Origin: a bacterium HR40
GTDB taxonomy: Bacteria > Pseudomonadota > Alphaproteobacteria > Geminicoccales > Geminicoccaceae
Direction: 5' to 3'
Assembly: GCA_002898275.1 (NCBI GenBank)
Contig: BEIQ01000001.1
Span: forward strand, 239,899-303,898
DNA: 64,000 bases
Below are positions 23,323-28,484 of this stretch, one piece after another. Every line of letters starts with the position of its first letter. Position 1 is the first letter of the stretch. Made by a program: the position numbers and the translations under genes. The notes under the pieces are model-generated. The model searched no databases and had not been told where the DNA came from. It worked only from the letters and a program-made list of their open reading frames with translations.

Positions 23323-24147
23323 TCATTTCCGGCGAGCGAGCAGCTCGCACGCGCCCAGCCGGCCATCCGCGAGGGCTGCCGCGAGATGGGCGATTTTTTC
23401 GCGAAAACGCTCGCCCATCACGATGGGAGCGGATCCACCGGATTCGCCGCTGAGCCGCAGCGCCCGCTCGTGGCTCCTCTGCATGGACTCGCGGGCGAAC
23501 GCGCTGCGATCGCGGAGCGCCACCACTCTCAAGCCCGCTGCTTCGACCAGCGCCACGAGCTCGTCCACCGAGACGAGATGACTCATCTGCGGGCTCTCCG
23601 CCCACGGGACCGGCAGGTCCGGCTCACCCCTCGCGCGCACCAGATCGAAGATCGCGAAATTGGCATCCGGCTTCAGTACGCGCGCCGCTTGCCGGTAGAA
23701 GCCCGGCTTGTCGGCGATGTTCATGCCGACGTGGATGGTATAGGCGGCGTCGAAACTCTCGTCCGAAAACGGCAGCTGGCAGGCGTCGGCGACGAGCATG
23801 TGCACGCGATGGGCGAGGCCGACCCGTCGCGTGAGTTCCCTTGCCGCCGCTACCAGCTCGAAGGTGAGGTCGATACCGGTGACGTGGCAGCCGGCGGCGA
23901 GAGCGAAATAGCGGGCGGCACCGCCGAGCCCGCTGCCGATGTCGAGCACCTGCATGCCCGGGCCCAGGGCCAGCAGTTCGCCGAGCGAGCGCGTGGCGGC
24001 GCGACCGCCCACGTGCATCTCGTCGAAGCCCTCGAGATCTTCCGGCGCGAGCCGGTCGGGGTCGTGGCCGCTGCGCGCCAGCGCCACCAGCAGCCGGTCG
24101 AGGAGACCGCCGCGCGTATAGTGACGGCAAATGTCGGAGCGGCTCAT
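23323..24147 (-). CDS. Class I SAM-dependent methyltransferase
   Basis: The start is taken at MSRSDICRHY (ATG complement 24145-24147). Motif I is VLDIGSGLGGAARYF, and the post-I segment is VTGIDL. 274 aa. The start overlaps the pyrE stop by 4 nt. Confidence 0.85.
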   Translation of the reverse strand: MSRSDICRHYTRGGLLDRLLVALARSGHDPDRLAPEDLEGFDEMHVGGRAATRSLGELLALGPGMQVLDIGSGLGGAARYFALAAGCHVTGIDLTFELVAAARELTRRVGLAHRVHMLVADACQLPFSDESFDAAYTIHVGMNIADKPGFYRQAARVLKPDANFAIFDLVRARGEPDLPVPWAESPQMSHLVSVDELVALVEAAGLRVVALRDRSAFARESMQRSHERALRLSGESGGSAPIVMGERFREKIAHLAAALADGRLGACELLARRK

Positions 24148-24869
24148 CCGCCGGTCCCCTCCTGGCCTTCGGCGGCGAAGGGGATCGCGCCGATGCCGCC
24201 ATGGTCGCGCGACCAGGCGAGCGGATCGGCGAGGAAGGTCTCGATATGGCGGCAGGTGGCGGCATCGAAATAGCCGGTCCGACGGGCCTCGGCGAGCACA
24301 TCCCGCCATGTGGCGAGCCAGTGGAGTCGCAGGCCATGGCTCTCGAGCCGCGCCAGCGCCTGGGGAAAGACGTCGTAGTAGAAGATCACGACCGCTTCGC
24401 TCACACGGCCACCCGCTTCGCGCAGCGCCTCGGCGAATCCAAGCTTGCTGCCGCCGTCGGTGGTGAGGTCCTCGACCAGCAACACGTCCGTTCCCGGCTC
24501 GAGCGCCCCCTCGATGCGCGCGTTGCGGCCAAATCCCTTGGGCTTCTTGCGCACGTAGAGCATCGGCAGGGCGAGCCGGTCGGCGAGCCAGGCGGCGAAG
24601 GGAATGCCCGCCGTCTCGCCGCCCGCCACCGCCTGGACCCGCTCGAAGCCAACCGCCTCGAGCACGAGCCCCGCGAGCAATTCGACGATCGTCCGCCGCA
24701 CGCGCGGGAAGGAGATGATCCGTCGGCAGTCGATATAGACCGGGCTGGCGAGACCGGAGGTCAGGACAAAAGGCTGATCGGGTCGAGCGAGCACCGCCTC
24801 GATCTCGACGAGAGCTTTCGCCGTGAGCCGGGCTGCTGTCGCGGCATCGGTCCATCCGCTCGCCAACAC
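24144..24869 (-). CDS. pyrE: Orotate phosphoribosyltransferase
   Basis: The PRPP loop is VLLVEDLTTDGGSK, with FVLTSGLASPVYIDCR. The GTG start is chosen because GAGGAGG lies 5 nt upstream; the longer 329-aa ORF is rejected. Confidence 0.88.
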   Translation of the reverse strand: MLASGWTDAATAARLTAKALVEIEAVLARPDQPFVLTSGLASPVYIDCRRIISFPRVRRTIVELLAGLVLEAVGFERVQAVAGGETAGIPFAAWLADRLALPMLYVRKKPKGFGRNARIEGALEPGTDVLLVEDLTTDGGSKLGFAEALREAGGRVSEAVVIFYYDVFPQALARLESHGLRLHWLATWRDVLAEARRTGYFDAATCRHIETFLADPLAWSRDHGGIGAIPFAAEGQEGTGG

Positions 24870-25181
24870 GTCGACCTCCTCTCGCGCCGAGCCATGCCCA
24901 TAATGGGTCGGAGCTCGGCGTCCGACCAGAAGGCGCTCGGGGTCGAAGAACGCCGCTTGTGGTGCGTTGCCGACACCGGCAAATGCGAGAGCCGCTGGCT
25001 GCGGCAAGGCCGCCACGCGGCGCTCCGAAATACAGCCTTTGCGCTGCCGACCGTCTCTGTGCGGCGGGTGGGAGAGGGTTAAGTTTAGCGCGGCCTCGCC
25101 TCTCGGGGCGGGAGAAGGAGGTCCTTCGGGCAAGCCCGTCGCGTCGCGGGCACCGGATCGAAAAGAGGGCGCAGCCGAAAG

Positions 25182-27383
25182 ATGGCGGAAACGGGCTTTT
25201 CAGGGCTGGCCGTACGATACGGCACGCTGCGGCGCAGCCACGAACTCGTCCGCATTGCAGGTGCCCTGCGCCGAGCGGGTGTGCGGGCGCTCGCCATCAA
25301 GGGACCGGCATTGGCGGTCGTCATCGGCGATGCTCCCGACAGCCGCCTTTCGGGCGACCTCGATTTCCTCGTCCCCCACGCCGAGGTCGAGGCGGCCGGC
25401 CAGGTGCTGAGGATGCTCGGCTTTGTGCCGCGGCCGCGTTCCAACGGGCTCGCTCGTCAGATCCACTTCGTGCGCAGCGACCCGCCCTTTCGCGTCGACC
25501 TGCACTGGCACGTCGCTCCCGCCCACATCGCCCTCCCCCTCGATCTCGAGCGCATGTGGCGCGAACGCACGGTCTTGACGGTTCACGGTCGGCCGGTCGA
25601 CACGCTGTCGGTGGTCGACCATCTTTTCCTCGCCACCTTCTACTGCATCAAGGAAGCGCCGCGCGTCGAGCACCGTTATCTCCTCGATGTGTTGCGCCTC
25701 GCCAGCCTCTTCGAGCGAACGGCGTGGCGACGGTTGCGCGAACGGGCGGAGGAGGCGCGCGCGGTGCGTATCGTCGCCATCGCCGTGCGCACCGCCTTCG
25801 CCGCCGCAGGAGAACCCCTCCCGCGGGCGTTCGCCGAGCTCTTTCCCGAGGAAGAGGCGGTGGCCGCGGCGGTCGACGACCTGCTCGCGCGGGCGAGGGA
25901 TCCGCGCAGTGCCATCAAGCACCGGATCGCGACCTATCTCGCCCACTTCTTTCATCACGGGCGCTACCGCGAACACTGGCGCGACCGCCTACGGCCGATC
26001 CTGCTCTTGCCGCTCTTCCTCCTCTTGCCGGAGGACGACGATGTCGAACGGGCGGCTGCGAGTGGCCGCAGCCCCTATGTCGAACGCCTGAAGCGGCTCA
26101 GCGAGGTGGTGGCCGTGCTGCGCGAGGCCCGCGCGCGCCGACGCGCCGACCGAGAATTCGAGAGGGCGCTGGGCCGAGCCGATACCCGCTTGCGACCGGC
26201 AGCCGACGTCGAGCTTCACCTTCTCGCCGATCGCGGGCTGCTCTTCGCCCCGCATTCGGGGGAGCTCTGCGCTCTCACCACGAGCGCCACCTGGATCTGG
26301 TGCGCGCTCTGCGAGGGTCTGGACTTGGGGGAGGTGCGAAGCGCGTTCGCGCGTGCCTTTTCTCTGCAGCCCGACGAGGCCGAGCGGGTGATCGCCGATT
26401 TGCTGCGCGCGTGGTGGCGCCATGGCCTGCTCGCGGATGCGCCGCGGCCGCCGGCGAAGGCTCCGGCCACTCCCGCCGCGCCTGCCGCGCCAGCAGCCGA
26501 GCTTCCACCGCCGTCGGGGGATGGGCTCGACCTCGAGCTCCGTATCCGCGACCTCCGCTACGGGCTGGCGCTTGCCCGTCCTGCCGCCCCCGGGGTGCTG
26601 CCGTTTCTCGCCCACTGGCAGGATGGCGGTTTCGCCGCAGCCCGTCCCGCCGAGTGGATTTCCGCCCGGGTCGACCAGGCCGATGGCGAGTGGCGCGTGG
26701 TCATCGACGGACAGCTGCGAGCCGCCACCTTCGCGCTCGCCCAACTCGGGCCCGAGGTGCAATACGCTCTCGCCATCGATGCCGCTCGCCGCCGCGGCTA
26801 CGATCTGTGGCTCGATGCCAGCATGCTGGCGGACCGGGACGGGGCCGTCCTCCTCATCGGTTCCTCGCTGTCCGACAGCCTGCCCTTGGCCTTCGCCCTC
26901 GCTCGGCAGGGTCTCGAGCGCGTGGCGGATCGATGGGTGCTGCTCGCGGGCGAGCCTCTGCGAGCGATGGGTTTGCCGGTCTCCGCCGGCATCGGGCCAG
27001 AGGAGTGGGAAGAGCTCCGCCGTCGCCATCCCGAGATCGCCGGCGGTGCGATACCCCGGGATGGCGACGGCTGCTTCGAGGCCTTTCTGGCTCCGCCCTC
27101 TGGCGAGCGGACCGGCAGCGAGGCGCTTGCCGTGCGACTGCTCGTCTTCCCCCGCCGGCGAGAAGGAGCTGCGACCGTCCTCGCTGCTGTCGATCCCGCA
27201 GAGGCGCTGGAACTGCTCCTCACCGAGGGCCTCGCCGAAGAGGTGCAGTTCGATGCCGGGCGGGTCGAGCGACTGATCCGCTGGATCCGGGAGGTGCCGG
27301 CGGTCCGCCTCGATTTCGGCGATCCAGAGGAAGCGGCTTGCTGTCTCCTCGCTCGCGGGCGCTCGCCGGCCGGGACGGGCTGA
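25182..27383 (+). CDS. Three-module fusion protein: NTP_transf_5-type nucleotidyltransferase + PqqD/RRE-like domain + HprK-related kinase-like domain (P-loop apparently degenerate)
   Basis: One uninterrupted 733-aa ORF. The first ~270 aa carry AIKGPALAVVIGDAPDSRLSGDLDFLVPH...LGF. Residues ~340-417 read VELHLLADRGLLFAPHSGELCALTTSATWIWCALCEGL...ADLLRAWWRHGLL (PqqD-like). After a Pro/Ala linker, residues ~448-733 are HprK-like, with LLIGSSLSDSLPLAFAL where GxSGxGKST is expected. Confidence 0.7.
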   Translation: MAETGFSGLAVRYGTLRRSHELVRIAGALRRAGVRALAIKGPALAVVIGDAPDSRLSGDLDFLVPHAEVEAAGQVLRMLGFVPRPRSNGLARQIHFVRSDPPFRVDLHWHVAPAHIALPLDLERMWRERTVLTVHGRPVDTLSVVDHLFLATFYCIKEAPRVEHRYLLDVLRLASLFERTAWRRLRERAEEARAVRIVAIAVRTAFAAAGEPLPRAFAELFPEEEAVAAAVDDLLARARDPRSAIKHRIATYLAHFFHHGRYREHWRDRLRPILLLPLFLLLPEDDDVERAAASGRSPYVERLKRLSEVVAVLREARARRRADREFERALGRADTRLRPAADVELHLLADRGLLFAPHSGELCALTTSATWIWCALCEGLDLGEVRSAFARAFSLQPDEAERVIADLLRAWWRHGLLADAPRPPAKAPATPAAPAAPAAELPPPSGDGLDLELRIRDLRYGLALARPAAPGVLPFLAHWQDGGFAAARPAEWISARVDQADGEWRVVIDGQLRAATFALAQLGPEVQYALAIDAARRRGYDLWLDASMLADRDGAVLLIGSSLSDSLPLAFALARQGLERVADRWVLLAGEPLRAMGLPVSAGIGPEEWEELRRRHPEIAGGAIPRDGDGCFEAFLAPPSGERTGSEALAVRLLVFPRRREGAATVLAAVDPAEALELLLTEGLAEEVQFDAGRVERLIRWIREVPAVRLDFGDPEEAACCLLARGRSPAGTG

Positions 27384-27401
27384 GGCAGGTCGTTCGGGGA
27401 T

Positions 27402-28484
27402 TCACGCGCGATCGAAATCGAGCGTCACCTCGGCGGTGAGCGGTCGCGCCTGACATGTCAGGACGTCGCCGGCGGCGAGATCGCGTTCGTCGAGGGCGTA
27501 GTTGGTGAGCAGTTCCACCTTGCCTGCGACGAGTCTGGCCCGACAGGTGGCACAGACCCCGGCGCGGCAGGAGAACGGGAGCTCGAGACCGAAACGGCGT
27601 GCCGCCTCGAGCACGGTCTCGGCCCGAAACGGCATGTCGAACTCGTGGCGCTCGCCATCGAGGATGACGGTGATGCGGGCGCGGTCGCCACTCGTCTCGA
27701 TCCGCGGCGCGGTCTCGAGCACCGGTCGCGGCCGGTTGCCCTCGGCGGTGAAATACTCGAAGAGGATGCGTTCGGCGGGAACGCCGAGAGCGAGAAGCGC
27801 GTCGGAAACGGTTTGGATCATCGGCGCCGGCCCGCACACGAACCAGCGATCGACCTCCGAAACCTGGAAGAGCCGACCTGCCCAGGCCCGCACCTTCTCG
27901 GCATCGATGCGGCCCGAGAACAGCTCGAGCGCCTCGCTGACCTCGGCCGAGAGCACGTGATGCAGGGCCAGACGTTCCATGTAGAGGTCCTTGAGGTCGG
28001 CGAGCCCCTCGCGGAAGATGATCGAGGAGGTGTTGCGGTTGCCGTAGAAGAGGGTGAAGCGGCTGTGCGGCTCCTCCTCGAGGATCGCCTTCAGGATGCC
28101 GAAGATCGGGGTGATACCGCTACCGGCGGCGAACGCCACATAGTGCCGCCGCGCTCCTGGATCGGGAGTGTGGGCGAAGCGACCGGTGGGTGGCATCGCT
28201 TCCAGCCGATCGCCGACCGCGAGACGCGCGTTGGCGAAACCCGAGAAGCGCCCGTGCGGCTGGCGCTTGACGGCGATCCTGAGGGTGTCTTCTCGGGGCG
28301 TCGAACAAAGGGAATAAGTGCGCCGGACCTCCGCACCGTCGACCACCGCCCGCACCACGAGATGCTGTCCCGGACGGAAGCGGAACGCCGGCTTGAGCTC
28401 TTCCGGCACGGCCAGGGCGATCGACACGCACTCCGCAGTCTCGCGGCGGATCTCGACCACCGGCAGGGGATGGAAACGGGCCAT
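27402..28484 (-). CDS. Ferredoxin-NAD(P)H reductase with C-terminal plant-type 2Fe-2S domain (PaaE/PaaK-like)
   Basis: The sequence is [16 protein letters not shown]...FRPGQHLVV...RTYSLCS (RxYS FAD motif). It also has [11 protein letters not shown] and the C-terminal [13 protein letters not shown] cluster motif. 360 aa. Confidence 0.85.

What the first reader, a model, noticed from the sequence alone, without database searches (positions are those of the whole stretch)
25182..27383. Solitary 733-aa gene fusing a nucleotidyltransferase, a PqqD/RRE peptide-binding domain and an HprK-like domain with a degenerate P-loop
Seen in the sequence:
- One uninterrupted ORF contains three modules.
- Residues ~1-270 look like an NTP_transf_5-type nucleotidyltransferase (AIKGPALAVVIGDAPDSRLSGDLDFLVPHAEVEAAGQVLRMLGF).
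- Residues ~340-417 (nt ~26199-26432) look like PqqD (LLADRGLLFAPHSGELCALTTSATWIWCALCEGLDLGEVRSAFARAFSLQPDEAERVIADLLRAWWRHGLL).
- A Pro/Ala linker (APRPPAKAPATPAAPAAPAAELPPP) follows.
- Residues ~448-733 resemble HprK-related kinases. Where that family carries GxSGxGKST, this protein reads LLIGSSLSDSLP (nt ~26850-26879), with no Gly-Lys-Ser/Thr.

Established knowledge:
- These three modules normally occur as separate neighbouring genes in the uncharacterised HPr-rel-A neighbourhoods (TIGR04352/TIGR04353-type).
- They also occur in kinase- or nucleotidyltransferase-tailored lasso-peptide clusters.
- PqqD domains are RiPP leader-peptide recognition elements.

Inference:
- This may be a self-contained peptide- or protein-directed nucleotidylyl-transfer or sensing machine in which the kinase-like module has become a pseudoenzyme scaffold.
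- No cyclase, protease, transporter or convincing precursor gene is adjacent. The neighbours are pyrE and a PaaE-like reductase. The substrate is therefore unknown and the arrangement does not match any described system I know.
Basis: partly seen in the sequence, partly recalled or inferred. Interest (0 to 1): 0.7.

Follow-up and report, generated by a model that had tools for sequence, protein, structure and literature searches.

The report
Kinase-dead orphan of a peptide-modifying enzyme
This 733-residue gene fuses a nucleotidyltransferase, a peptide-binding domain and a dead kinase; it is an orphan of a so far undescribed bacterial system that modifies small export-signal peptides, and this genome has lost the peptide gene from the locus.

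Summary
Window 25182-27383(+) is one ORF with three domains: an NTP_transf_5 nucleotidyltransferase, a PqqD/RRE fold and an HprK-like domain. The HprK-like domain has no Walker A Lys and no 'GK' anywhere in the protein.

- **A real family.** The fusion is not an artefact. Full-length orthologues sit in the same pyrE / PaaE-like synteny, and about a dozen 50%-identity clusters exist. Nearly all of them carry an intact 'PGSGKT...TDE' site.
- **A missing partner.** Every relative with an intact site that I could inspect (5 loci, about 4 independent) has an adjacent 60-80-aa gene. It encodes a twin-arginine (Tat) signal (RRxFLxKAGK, hydrophobic stretch, AxA), an invariant Tyr and a variable basic tail.
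- **The same peptides elsewhere.** They also flank split versions of the system, with a separate NTase gene and a PqqD-kinase gene.
- **Absent here.** The window (64 kb) and two other orthologues with decayed kinase sites lack the peptide gene. These losses happened at least twice independently.
- **Uneven decay.** The window protein keeps 27/29 conserved NTase positions and 8/8 RRE positions, but only 28/49 kinase positions.

Best reading: a peptide-less derivative with a pseudokinase scaffold, whose NTase and RRE have stayed under selection. Its present substrate is unknown. I found no paper describing the parent system.

The parts
25182..27383 (+). Gene for the 733-aa NTase-RRE-pseudokinase fusion protein. 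It is identical in length and nearly identical in sequence to GBD42792.1 of 'bacterium HR40'.
   Evidence: ORF and translation; codon-position GC; full-length orthologues at 34-51% identity; cluster members.
25215..26186 (+). NTP_transf_5 nucleotidyltransferase domain plus its helical extension (residues 12-335). The catalytic-type residues G41, D59, D61, D106 and H108 are retained.
   Evidence: Pfam PF14907 E=2.6e-27. Foldseek matches MenT1, ANT(2'')-Ia and LnuA with TM 0.65-0.69. 27 of 29 family-conserved columns are kept.
26199..26432 (+). PqqD-like RiPP recognition element (RRE), residues 340-417.
   Evidence: Pfam PqqD 22.2 bits. Foldseek matches TbiB1 bound to its leader peptide with TM 0.87-0.92 and rmsd about 1 A. 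8 of 8 conserved columns are kept.
26439..26522 (+). Pro/Ala-rich linker, residues 420-447, of variable length among orthologues.
   Evidence: Alignment A1; pLDDT below 50 for residues 425-446.
26523..27380 (+). HprK-like domain, catalytically degenerate (pseudokinase), residues 448-733.
   Evidence: TIGR04352 E=1e-4 here, against 1e-25 to 1e-30 in homologues. Foldseek matches HprK/P 3tqf and 1kkl. Only 28 of 49 conserved columns are kept; the losses are polar or catalytic and the hydrophobic core is retained.
26850..26885 (+). Relic of the Walker A loop. LLIGSSLSDSLP replaces LLPAAPGSGKTC; the Lys position is Ser566 and the Thr position is Leu567.
   Evidence: Alignments; no 'GK' in the protein.
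26814..26816 (+). Asp545 in place of the family-invariant His. That His aligns with the His before the P-loop of Coxiella HprK.
26925..26933 (+). 'ADR' in place of the conserved 'TDE', which aligns with 'CDD' of Coxiella HprK. The acidic second residue is lost (E584R).
24867..25181 (.). Intergenic region of about 315 bp between the divergent pyrE and the fusion gene. Relatives have about 660 bp here, containing the Tat-signal peptide gene. No such gene or remnant is present in the window.
   Evidence: Regex, tblastn, blastn, peptide-HMM and local-alignment searches, compared with L016-L019.

Best explanation
**What the gene is.** It is the fused form of a two-enzyme peptide-modification cassette.

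**The intact system.**
- It consists of an NTP_transf_5 nucleotidyltransferase and a PqqD(RRE)-HprK-like kinase. These are separate, translationally overlapping genes, or they are fused as here.
- It also has one or two small precursor genes. Each encodes a canonical Tat signal (RRxFLxKAGK, a hydrophobic region and a basic c-region ending in AxA), then an invariant Tyr, then a variable Gly/Arg/Lys/His/Pro-rich tail.

**Inferred mechanism for intact systems.**
1. The RRE docks on the conserved signal/leader.
2. The P-loop kinase phosphorylates the core. The invariant Tyr is the only universally conserved hydroxyl.
3. The NTase elaborates that site by nucleotidylyl or phospho-sugar transfer, as PsmK and PsmN do in pseudomycoidin.
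4. Tat and signal peptidase then export and release the peptide. This would explain why the cassette has no dedicated protease or transporter.

**What is shown for the window lineage.** The peptide gene is gone from the locus and the kinase active site has decayed: the Walker A Lys/Thr, the preceding His and the Glu of TDE are all lost. The kinase fold's hydrophobic core, all RRE columns and 27/29 NTase columns are retained.

**What I infer for the window protein.** It can no longer phosphorylate. It is kept as an NTase-RRE protein with a pseudokinase scaffold, and it acts on or binds a substrate that is not encoded nearby. That substrate could be an unlinked Tat-leader peptide or protein.
For: - **Domains.**
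- **Orthologues in identical synteny.**
- **Peptide gene and P-loop state go together.** The peptide gene is adjacent in all 5 inspected fusion loci with an intact P-loop: L002, L004, L005, L006, L007 and L016-19.
- **Where the peptide is absent.** It is absent by regex and by a 19-sequence HMM from the window, L022, L001 and L003, whose P-loops are degenerate. Best E is above 1 there, against below 1e-21 in the positive loci.
- **The same peptide family flanks split systems.** L020, L021, L023/24 and L026.
- **The peptide family is large and stereotyped.** 192 hits; 126/130 have RRxF[LIVM]; 119/126 have a Tyr 25-37 residues later. TIGR01409 TAT_signal reaches its cut-off in 2 of 4 tested.
- **The losses are independent.** P0005 is sister to the intact P0002 (100% bootstrap) and the window is basal (73%).
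- **Constraint differs by domain.** NTase 27/29, RRE 8/8, kinase 28/49 conserved columns kept; Fisher p=0.0007.
- **The kinase domain diverges faster without a P-loop.** Its identity is 36-44% in P-loop-less lineages and 60% between intact ones, at similar NTase divergence.
- **A degenerate P-loop is rare.** 137 of the top 150 representatives have G.GK[ST]. Of the other 13, three keep SGKT and five are fragments that lack the kinase domain.
- **Functional precedent.** In lasso pathways an HPr-kinase homologue phosphorylates the precursor and an NTase adds hexose to the phosphate (PMC8498205 and PMC6993621).
Against: - No biochemical data exist for any member. The modified residue, the chemistry and Tat export are inferences.
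- The rest of the genome could not be searched, so an unlinked peptide gene is neither shown nor excluded.
- Recent dN/dS against a 98%-identical relative is high: 0.60, against 0.08 or less in neighbouring genes. That fits relaxed constraint.
- However, an intact peptide-bearing pair at the same shallow divergence gives 0.47, and a deeper pair gives 0.24. The test therefore does not discriminate.
- The window protein alone has lost two conserved NTase columns (D51A, W146D).
- The peptide/P-loop correlation rests on 8 loci, about 4 plus 3 independent lineages.
Confidence: 0.6

Rival explanations
1. Functionless relic. After the peptide gene was lost, the whole gene became dispensable and is drifting toward a pseudogene. 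It is still an open frame only because the loss is recent and stop codons are rare at 70% GC.
For: - The cognate peptide gene is absent.
- The kinase site is destroyed.
- dN/dS is 0.60, not significantly below neutrality (binomial p=0.08). It is far above the neighbouring genes (Fisher p=0.001).
- Two conserved NTase columns are lost only in the window.
- An 826-aa off-frame ORF over the same DNA shows how easily long ORFs persist at this GC content.
Against: - If the whole gene were neutral, the NTase and RRE should have lost conserved columns at the kinase domain's rate of 29-43%. They lost 0-7% in three separate lineages.
- There are no frameshifts in any of three peptide-less lineages or in four near-identical variants.
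- The kinase hydrophobic core is retained, and AF2 folds the domain with pLDDT of 80-90.
- The intact-system control has a similar shallow-divergence dN/dS of 0.47.
Confidence: 0.27
2. A tailoring enzyme of a lasso-peptide pathway, or of another classical RiPP pathway, whose core genes lie elsewhere.
For: - HPr-kinase homologues, NTases and PqqD-type RREs all occur in lasso clusters.
- The RRE's best structural match is a lasso B1 protein.
- There are weak NF033530 lasso_PqqD hits in homologues.
Against: - No cyclase, B2 protease or ABC exporter lies next to the gene here or in any of more than 12 related loci. The flanking genes are housekeeping and syntenic.
- The associated peptides have Tat signals. 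They do not look like lasso leaders and cores.
Confidence: 0.03
3. The kinase domain is still active through a non-canonical nucleotide site, or the P-loop lies elsewhere in the domain.
For: The domain fold is preserved.
Against: - No GK, GK[ST] or G-x4-GK occurs anywhere in the protein.
- Three separate catalytic elements are lost together: the His, Walker A and the acidic residue of TDE.
- Other family-invariant polar residues are lost as well: K527, N536, K605, H625 and R627.
Confidence: 0.04
4. The fusion is an assembly or frameshift artefact that joins separate genes.
For: In split systems the NTase and PqqD-kinase genes overlap by 4 bp, so a single-base error could fuse them.
Against: - The same fusion, with a long helical and Pro/Ala linker region, is found in independent assemblies and samples.
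- These include four 96-100% identical variants, five orthologues at 34-51% identity, and about a dozen 50% clusters.
Confidence: 0.01

Closest known systems
Lasso-peptide tailoring pair PsmK/PadeK (HPr-kinase homologue) and PsmN (NTase), acting with a PqqD-like B1 RRE (paeninodin, pseudomycoidin; PMC8498205, PMC6993621)
   Same: The three protein folds are the same. The logic also matches: leader recognition, phosphorylation of a hydroxyl on the precursor, then NTase-dependent decoration of the phosphate. PsmN, like this NTase, models on ANT(2'').
   Different: - There is no lasso cyclase, protease or exporter.
- The precursors carry Tat signals and an invariant Tyr, not a C-terminal Ser.
- The enzymes are fused.
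- In the window the kinase is dead and no precursor gene is present.
NCBIfam 'HPr-rel-A system' (TIGR04352 HprK-related kinase A, TIGR04353 PqqD family peptide chaperone). It is defined by bioinformatics only. I found no paper on it.
   Same: It is the best-scoring NCBIfam model for the C-terminal domain, and it has the same set of domain types.
   Different: - Scores are far below the family cut-offs: 21.5 bits in the window and 80-104 bits in homologues, against 200. PqqD_rel_X scores at most 26.7 against 35.
- This is therefore a sister family.
- Here the PqqD and kinase are one polypeptide.
SynChlorMet cassette proteins ScmC (HprK-like) and ScmD (PqqD-like)
   Same: There are weak hits to TIGR04249/PF27840 ScmC and to TIGR04248 ScmD in family members. 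This is again an RRE paired with an HprK-like protein.
   Different: All scores are well below cut-off. No radical SAM/SPASM partner is present.
RiPP precursors (DUF2282 peptides paired with DUF2063-type RREs) that carry a Sec-dependent signal peptide ahead of a variable leader region (PMC12710340). From my own knowledge these are the 'bufferins'.
   Same: A general-secretion signal sits at the N-terminus of the precursor. From my own knowledge, these systems have no dedicated protease or exporter.
   Different: - The signal is Sec, not Tat.
- The modifying enzymes are different (from my own knowledge, MNIO/DUF692 enzymes).
- The resemblance is conceptual only.
Tyr-directed NTases GlnE and GlnD (from my own knowledge, not tested here)
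   Same: They are Pol-beta-superfamily NTases that nucleotidylylate a specific Tyr hydroxyl. This is a precedent for the invariant Tyr being the target.
   Different: No detectable sequence relationship was tested. Their targets are folded proteins, not leader-bearing peptides.

Membership tests
Pfam PF14907 NTP_transf_5 | HMM score above the gathering threshold | tested here: met
   96.4 bits against 31.2, E=2.6e-27, residues 12-205. The match starts at profile position 50, as in all orthologues of this clade.
Pfam PF14907 NTP_transf_5 | NTase catalytic-type motifs (hG[GS], DxD, third Asp) | tested here: met
   K40-G41, D59/D61 and D106-x-H108 are invariant across the fusions, including the window. 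The fold matches ANT(2''), LnuA and MenT1. Activity was not tested.
PqqD / RiPP recognition element (PF05402) | HMM score above the gathering threshold | tested here: not met
   22.2 bits against 23.4. Several homologues pass, at 23.8-34.7 bits.
PqqD / RiPP recognition element (PF05402) | Winged-helix RRE fold (three-stranded sheet plus three helices) | tested here: met
   The AF2 model has strands 344-365 and helices 367-413. Foldseek against TbiB1-leader complexes gives TM 0.87-0.92 and rmsd 1.0-1.4 A.
PqqD / RiPP recognition element (PF05402) | Binds a leader peptide | not testable with these tools
   A conserved candidate leader (RRxFLxKAGK...) exists in relatives, but binding is untested.
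NCBIfam TIGR04352 HprK-related kinase A | Score above the equivalog cut-off of 200 bits | tested here: not met
   21.5 bits in the window; 80-104 bits in intact homologues.
HprK/P-type P-loop kinases | Walker A GxxGxGK[ST] | tested here: not met
   IGSSLSDSL sits at the aligned site, and there is no GK anywhere in the protein.
HprK/P-type P-loop kinases | Conserved His before the P-loop and an acidic pair after it (xDD/TDE) | tested here: not met
   H545D, and TDE reads ADR.
HprK/P-type P-loop kinases | HprK/PEPCK-like fold | tested here: inconclusive
   Foldseek against 3tqf and 1kkl gives probability 0.9 but TM of only 0.43-0.44. Sequence-profile E=0.066. Homology is secure only through the intact homologues.
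Lasso-peptide biosynthetic cluster | Adjacent lasso cyclase (C) and leader protease (B2) | tested here: not met
   Neighbours within about 6 kb are DeoC, EF-P, an inositol phosphatase, a DRL oxidoreductase, a methyltransferase, pyrE, a PaaE-like reductase, TrpRS and flagellin. The same holds in related loci. The remaining genes of the 64-kb window were not individually profiled.
Tat-leader peptide + NTase + RRE-kinase cassette (undescribed; defined here) | Orthology of the enzyme to fused or split NTase and RRE-kinase proteins | tested here: met
   Full-length alignment, shared synteny and tree.
Tat-leader peptide + NTase + RRE-kinase cassette (undescribed; defined here) | Adjacent RRxFLxKAGK...AxA..Y precursor gene | tested here: not met
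   None in 64 kb by regex or HMM. The rest of the genome was not searchable.

The most novel reading that the evidence does not exclude
The intact relatives would define a new class of ribosomal peptide products. In it, a genuine twin-arginine signal peptide doubles as the RRE-recognised leader, a Tyr next to the signal-peptidase site is phosphorylated and then nucleotidylylated or glycosylated, and Tat plus signal peptidase replace the usual dedicated exporter and protease. The window's kinase-dead, peptide-less protein would be a repurposed survivor of that system. Its RRE would still bind Tat-type signals, and its NTase would modify or chaperone unlinked Tat substrates.
Probability: 0.15. 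Interest if true: 0.85.

Novelty: new variant of a known kind. Interest (0 to 1): 0.6.

Why it matters
- **A new system.** Following this odd solitary gene uncovers a widespread cassette that I could not find described. Hundreds of enzyme clusters and about 190 peptide clusters were detected. The cassette pairs an RRE-kinase and an NTase with small Tat-signal peptides that carry an invariant Tyr.
- **A link between two fields.** If the peptides are modified before Tat export, this would connect RiPP biosynthesis to the general Tat pathway. It would also supply a new post-translational chemistry on Tyr.
- **A natural experiment.** The window copy and two other lineages show repeated co-loss of the peptide gene and the kinase active site, while the NTase and RRE are retained. 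That assigns the peptide to the kinase by phylogenetic profile. It also shows a pseudoenzyme in the making.
- **The limit.** The window gene on its own is a degenerate member with an unknown present-day role.

Tried and rejected
It has no start codon, lies antisense to pyrE and has no homology to the peptide family.
- **A remnant of the peptide gene in the window's intergenic region.** tblastn, blastn, the peptide HMM and a shuffled-control local alignment found nothing above chance.
- **An apparent minus-strand peptide match in the L001 intergenic region.** It is an Arg-rich spurious ORF.
- **An upstream frameshift hiding a longer NTase N-terminus.** All clade orthologues start at the same point, 'MRAS'.
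- **The syntenic methyltransferase (23323-24150) as part of the system.** I tested this because NTase-methyltransferase fusions occur in other variants (P0007, L026). It shows only generic class-I similarity, with E of 0.001 or worse over 57 aa.
- **An anti-phage defence system.** There are no PADLOC hits.
- **Direct sequence search of the PDB.** No hits for the full protein.
- **dN/dS as proof of decay.** This was undermined by the intact-system control.
- **Literature searches.** Searches for TIGR04352, HprK-related kinase, PF14907, and Tat-signal RiPPs found nothing relevant.
Full report
**1. The observation**

Window 25182-27383(+) is a single 733-codon ORF starting with ATG. Its codon-position GC is typical of coding sequence in this roughly 69% GC DNA: 0.79/0.52/0.81. 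Longer or overlapping ORFs in other frames are high-GC shadows. Examples are 24959-27439(+) at 826 aa and 25989-27029(-).

The three domains are supported as follows.
- **NTase.** Pfam finds NTP_transf_5 at residues 12-205 (E=2.6e-27).
- **PqqD.** Pfam finds PqqD at residues 354-417 at 22.2 bits, just under the 23.4 cut-off.
- **HprK-like.** NCBIfam finds only a weak HprK_rel_A match at residues 505-722 (E=1e-4, 21.5 bits against 200).

An AlphaFold2 model built on six sequences has mean pLDDT 74. I compared it with the PDB.
- The N-terminal domain matches the NTases MenT1, ANT(2'')-Ia and LnuA (target TM 0.65-0.69).
- The middle domain matches the lasso RRE TbiB1 bound to its leader (TM 0.87-0.92, rmsd 1.0-1.4 A, 26% identity).
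- The C-terminal domain matches HprK/P and PEPCK (probability 0.9, TM about 0.43).

The locus otherwise consists of housekeeping genes.

**2. The fusion is real and the P-loop loss is derived**

The word-indexed search found an identical protein and five full-length homologues at 34-51% identity. An exhaustive profile search of 1.84 billion representatives gave three kinds of hit.
- About a dozen further full-length fusion clusters.
- Hundreds of proteins of about 400 aa that cover only the PqqD and kinase part.
- Other N-terminal fusions. One is a GlcNAc-transferase-PqqD-kinase protein, P0061.

Only one locus turned up in 185,579 species genomes, an uncultured Geminicoccaceae MAG. The metagenome scan added only one more full-length fusion. 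The three-domain fusion is therefore rare.

In the alignments nearly every member reads 'LHAAML...LLPAAPGSGKTCL...HTDE'. A profile of this domain aligns those motifs with the His, the P-loop and the 'CDD' of Coxiella HprK. The window instead reads 'LDASML...LLIGSSLSDSLPL...VADR'. 'GK' occurs nowhere in the protein. Of the 150 best representatives, 137 have G.GK[ST]. Of the other 13, three keep SGKT and five are fragments that lack the kinase domain.

**3. What the relatives have that the window lacks**

Orthologues P0003, P0004 and P0005 (loci L001, L002, L003) lie in exactly the same synteny: DeoC, ThiE-like, EF-P, inositol phosphatase, DRL oxidoreductase, methyltransferase and pyrE on one side, then the fusion, then the PaaE-like reductase, TrpRS and flagellin.

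Loci L002, L004, L005 and L007 have a small gene just upstream of the fusion. L006 has one just downstream. Its product has these features.
- A canonical twin-arginine signal: RRxF[LI]xKAGK, a hydrophobic stretch, and a basic c-region ending in AxA.
- An invariant Tyr one to five residues after the AxA.
- A variable tail, for example GYRRHGGSGGGHRRGRGRGHDRFHE or LYFPKFPDFPSFPGMN.

TIGR01409 TAT_signal reaches its cut-off for two of the four peptides tested.

Searching with the peptide profile gave 17 relatives and, after widening the profile, 192 relatives. Of 130 inspected, 126 carry RRxF[LIVM]. Of those, 119 have a Tyr 25-37 residues later, and 68 have it at exactly +34. Many end in Gly/Lys/Arg/His-rich tails.

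The contexts of these peptides are consistent.
- P0159 sits in the window's synteny, next to a 725-aa fusion with an intact P-loop.
- More distant peptides sit beside split systems, with an NTP_transf_5 gene followed by a 392-400-aa PqqD-HprK-like gene carrying 'PAAPGSGKT...SDE'. In L023/L024 the two enzyme genes overlap by 4 bp.
- One locus has two peptides, a PqqD-ScmC-like protein and an NTase-methyltransferase fusion.

The unit is therefore an NTase, an RRE-kinase and one or more Tat-leader peptides. I found no paper on it.

**4. The window is a peptide-less, kinase-dead derivative**

A regex and a 19-sequence HMM run over six-frame translations find the peptide with E below 1e-21 in every locus with an intact P-loop. 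They find nothing (best E above 1) in four places:
- the 64-kb window;
- its 98%-identical relative L022;
- L001 (P0003, P-loop 'AAADLPRTG', 'SAE');
- L003 (P0005, 'AAGSDKS').

The pyrE-fusion spacer is about 315 bp in the window and 307 bp in L001. It is about 660 bp where the peptide gene is present. No remnant is detectable.

A neighbour-joining tree on the NTase and RRE domains gives the following.
- The syntenic clade has 99% support.
- P0005 is sister to the intact P0002 (100%).
- The window is basal (73%).

The peptide gene and the P-loop were therefore lost together at least twice, and probably three times.

**5. Pseudoenzyme or pseudogene?**

I took the columns conserved in at least 13 of 14 fusions with an intact P-loop and counted how many the peptide-less proteins keep.

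| Domain | Conserved columns | Window | P0003 | P0005 |
|---|---|---|---|---|
| NTase | 29 | 27 | 29 | 29 |
| RRE | 8 | 8 | 8 | 8 |
| Kinase | 49 | 28 | 29 | 35 |

The lost kinase columns are polar or catalytic: K527, N536, H545, the P-loop, E584, K605, H625 and R627. The kept ones are hydrophobic core. NTase against kinase retention in the window gives Fisher p=0.0007.

Domain identities tell the same story. The kinase domain is 36-44% identical in P-loop-less lineages and 60% between two intact ones, at comparable NTase divergence. Uniform neutral decay cannot produce this pattern. The NTase and RRE stayed under selection while the kinase site decayed. No frameshift has appeared in three lineages or in four near-identical variants.

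Against this, dN/dS between the window and L022 is 0.60 (26 non-synonymous, 16 synonymous). The flanking reductase gives 0.08 and TrpRS gives 0. However, an intact, peptide-bearing pair at the same shallow divergence gives 0.47, and a deeper pair gives 0.24. The family simply evolves fast: the window protein is 47-51% identical to the syntenic-clade orthologues, whereas most flanking proteins are 70-92% identical. The recent ratio therefore does not discriminate. I favour a retained NTase-RRE protein with a pseudokinase scaffold (0.6) over a drifting relic (about 0.27).

**6. Mechanism: what is shown and what is inferred**

Shown:
- the domain folds;
- the conserved NTase motifs;
- the dead kinase;
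- the linkage of the enzymes to Tat-leader peptides with an invariant Tyr;
- the co-loss of the peptide gene and the kinase site.

Inferred by analogy with paeninodin and pseudomycoidin, where an HPr-kinase homologue phosphorylates the precursor and an NTase adds hexose to the phosphate:
1. The RRE binds the conserved signal/leader.
2. The kinase phosphorylates the core, most plausibly the invariant Tyr. In some cores (P0172) it is the only hydroxyl residue.
3. The NTase, or in P0061 a glycosyltransferase, decorates that site.
4. Tat and signal peptidase export and release the product, which would account for the absence of a dedicated protease or transporter.

The His/Gly/Arg-rich tails hint at metal or envelope binding, but that is speculation. 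For the window protein only the NTase and RRE steps remain possible, and its substrate is unknown.

**7. Comparison with known families, and verdict**

The protein works like the lasso-peptide tailoring enzymes but is not part of a lasso cluster. It resembles the NCBIfam HPr-rel-A and SynChlorMet ScmC/ScmD proteins but fails their cut-offs. It is not a defence-system protein by PADLOC.

- the pseudoenzyme reading is right;
- 'self-contained and unlike anything' is a derived state of a two-component cassette.

Novelty: a new variant of a known kind (RRE-guided peptide tailoring). The parent cassette itself appears undescribed.

Noticed in passing
window 24959-27439 (+) and 25989-27029 (-): An 826-aa ORF in another + frame and a 346-aa antisense ORF overlap the real gene. 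Both are high-GC shadow ORFs with no domain evidence. They are a caution for ORF-length arguments in this genome.
   Followed up: partly
window 25110-25121: A strong Shine-Dalgarno-like GGGAGAAGGAGG lies in the pyrE-fusion spacer with no start codon 5-12 nt downstream. The real gene's ATG at 25182 has only a weaker AAGAGGG 12 nt upstream. I found no similarity to the peptide-gene leaders of relatives.
   Followed up: partly
window 23323-24150 (-): A class-I methyltransferase (best hit the DVU_1556 family, below cut-off) is conserved in synteny between the DRL oxidoreductase and pyrE in all related loci. It is not specifically related to the methyltransferase that is fused to the NTase in other variants of the cassette.
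   Followed up: yes
L026 7411-11368 (NCBI CCZJOZ010000041.1): A cassette variant with two tandem Tat-leader peptide genes (96 and 80 aa), a PqqD-ScmC-like protein (355 aa) and a convergent NTP_transf_5-methyltransferase fusion (666 aa). P0061 is a GlcNAc-transferase-PqqD-kinase fusion. The tailoring module appears to be interchangeable.
   Followed up: partly
P0024 (696 aa), P0047, P0067, P0093: Other family representatives also lack G.GK[ST]. P0024 reads 'GEPGAVK' and has no TDE. These may be further independent pseudokinase derivatives. Their genomic context could not be fetched.
   Followed up: no
Peptide family P0159-P0288: Many predicted mature peptides are rich in His/Gly/Arg/Lys repeats, for example HGHGGSNSHGHGGSHGHGHG. 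One was named 'Spy/CpxP family chaperone' by JGI, and one gives a weak ZraP hit. A periplasmic metal-binding role is conceivable but was not tested.
   Followed up: no
window 42327 (-): This is the only RRxFLxxxG match in the window outside the searched locus. It lies internal to a longer protein (…GRRSFLKRPGTVLVEFLEP…) and is not an N-terminal signal, so it is not a candidate precursor.
   Followed up: partly
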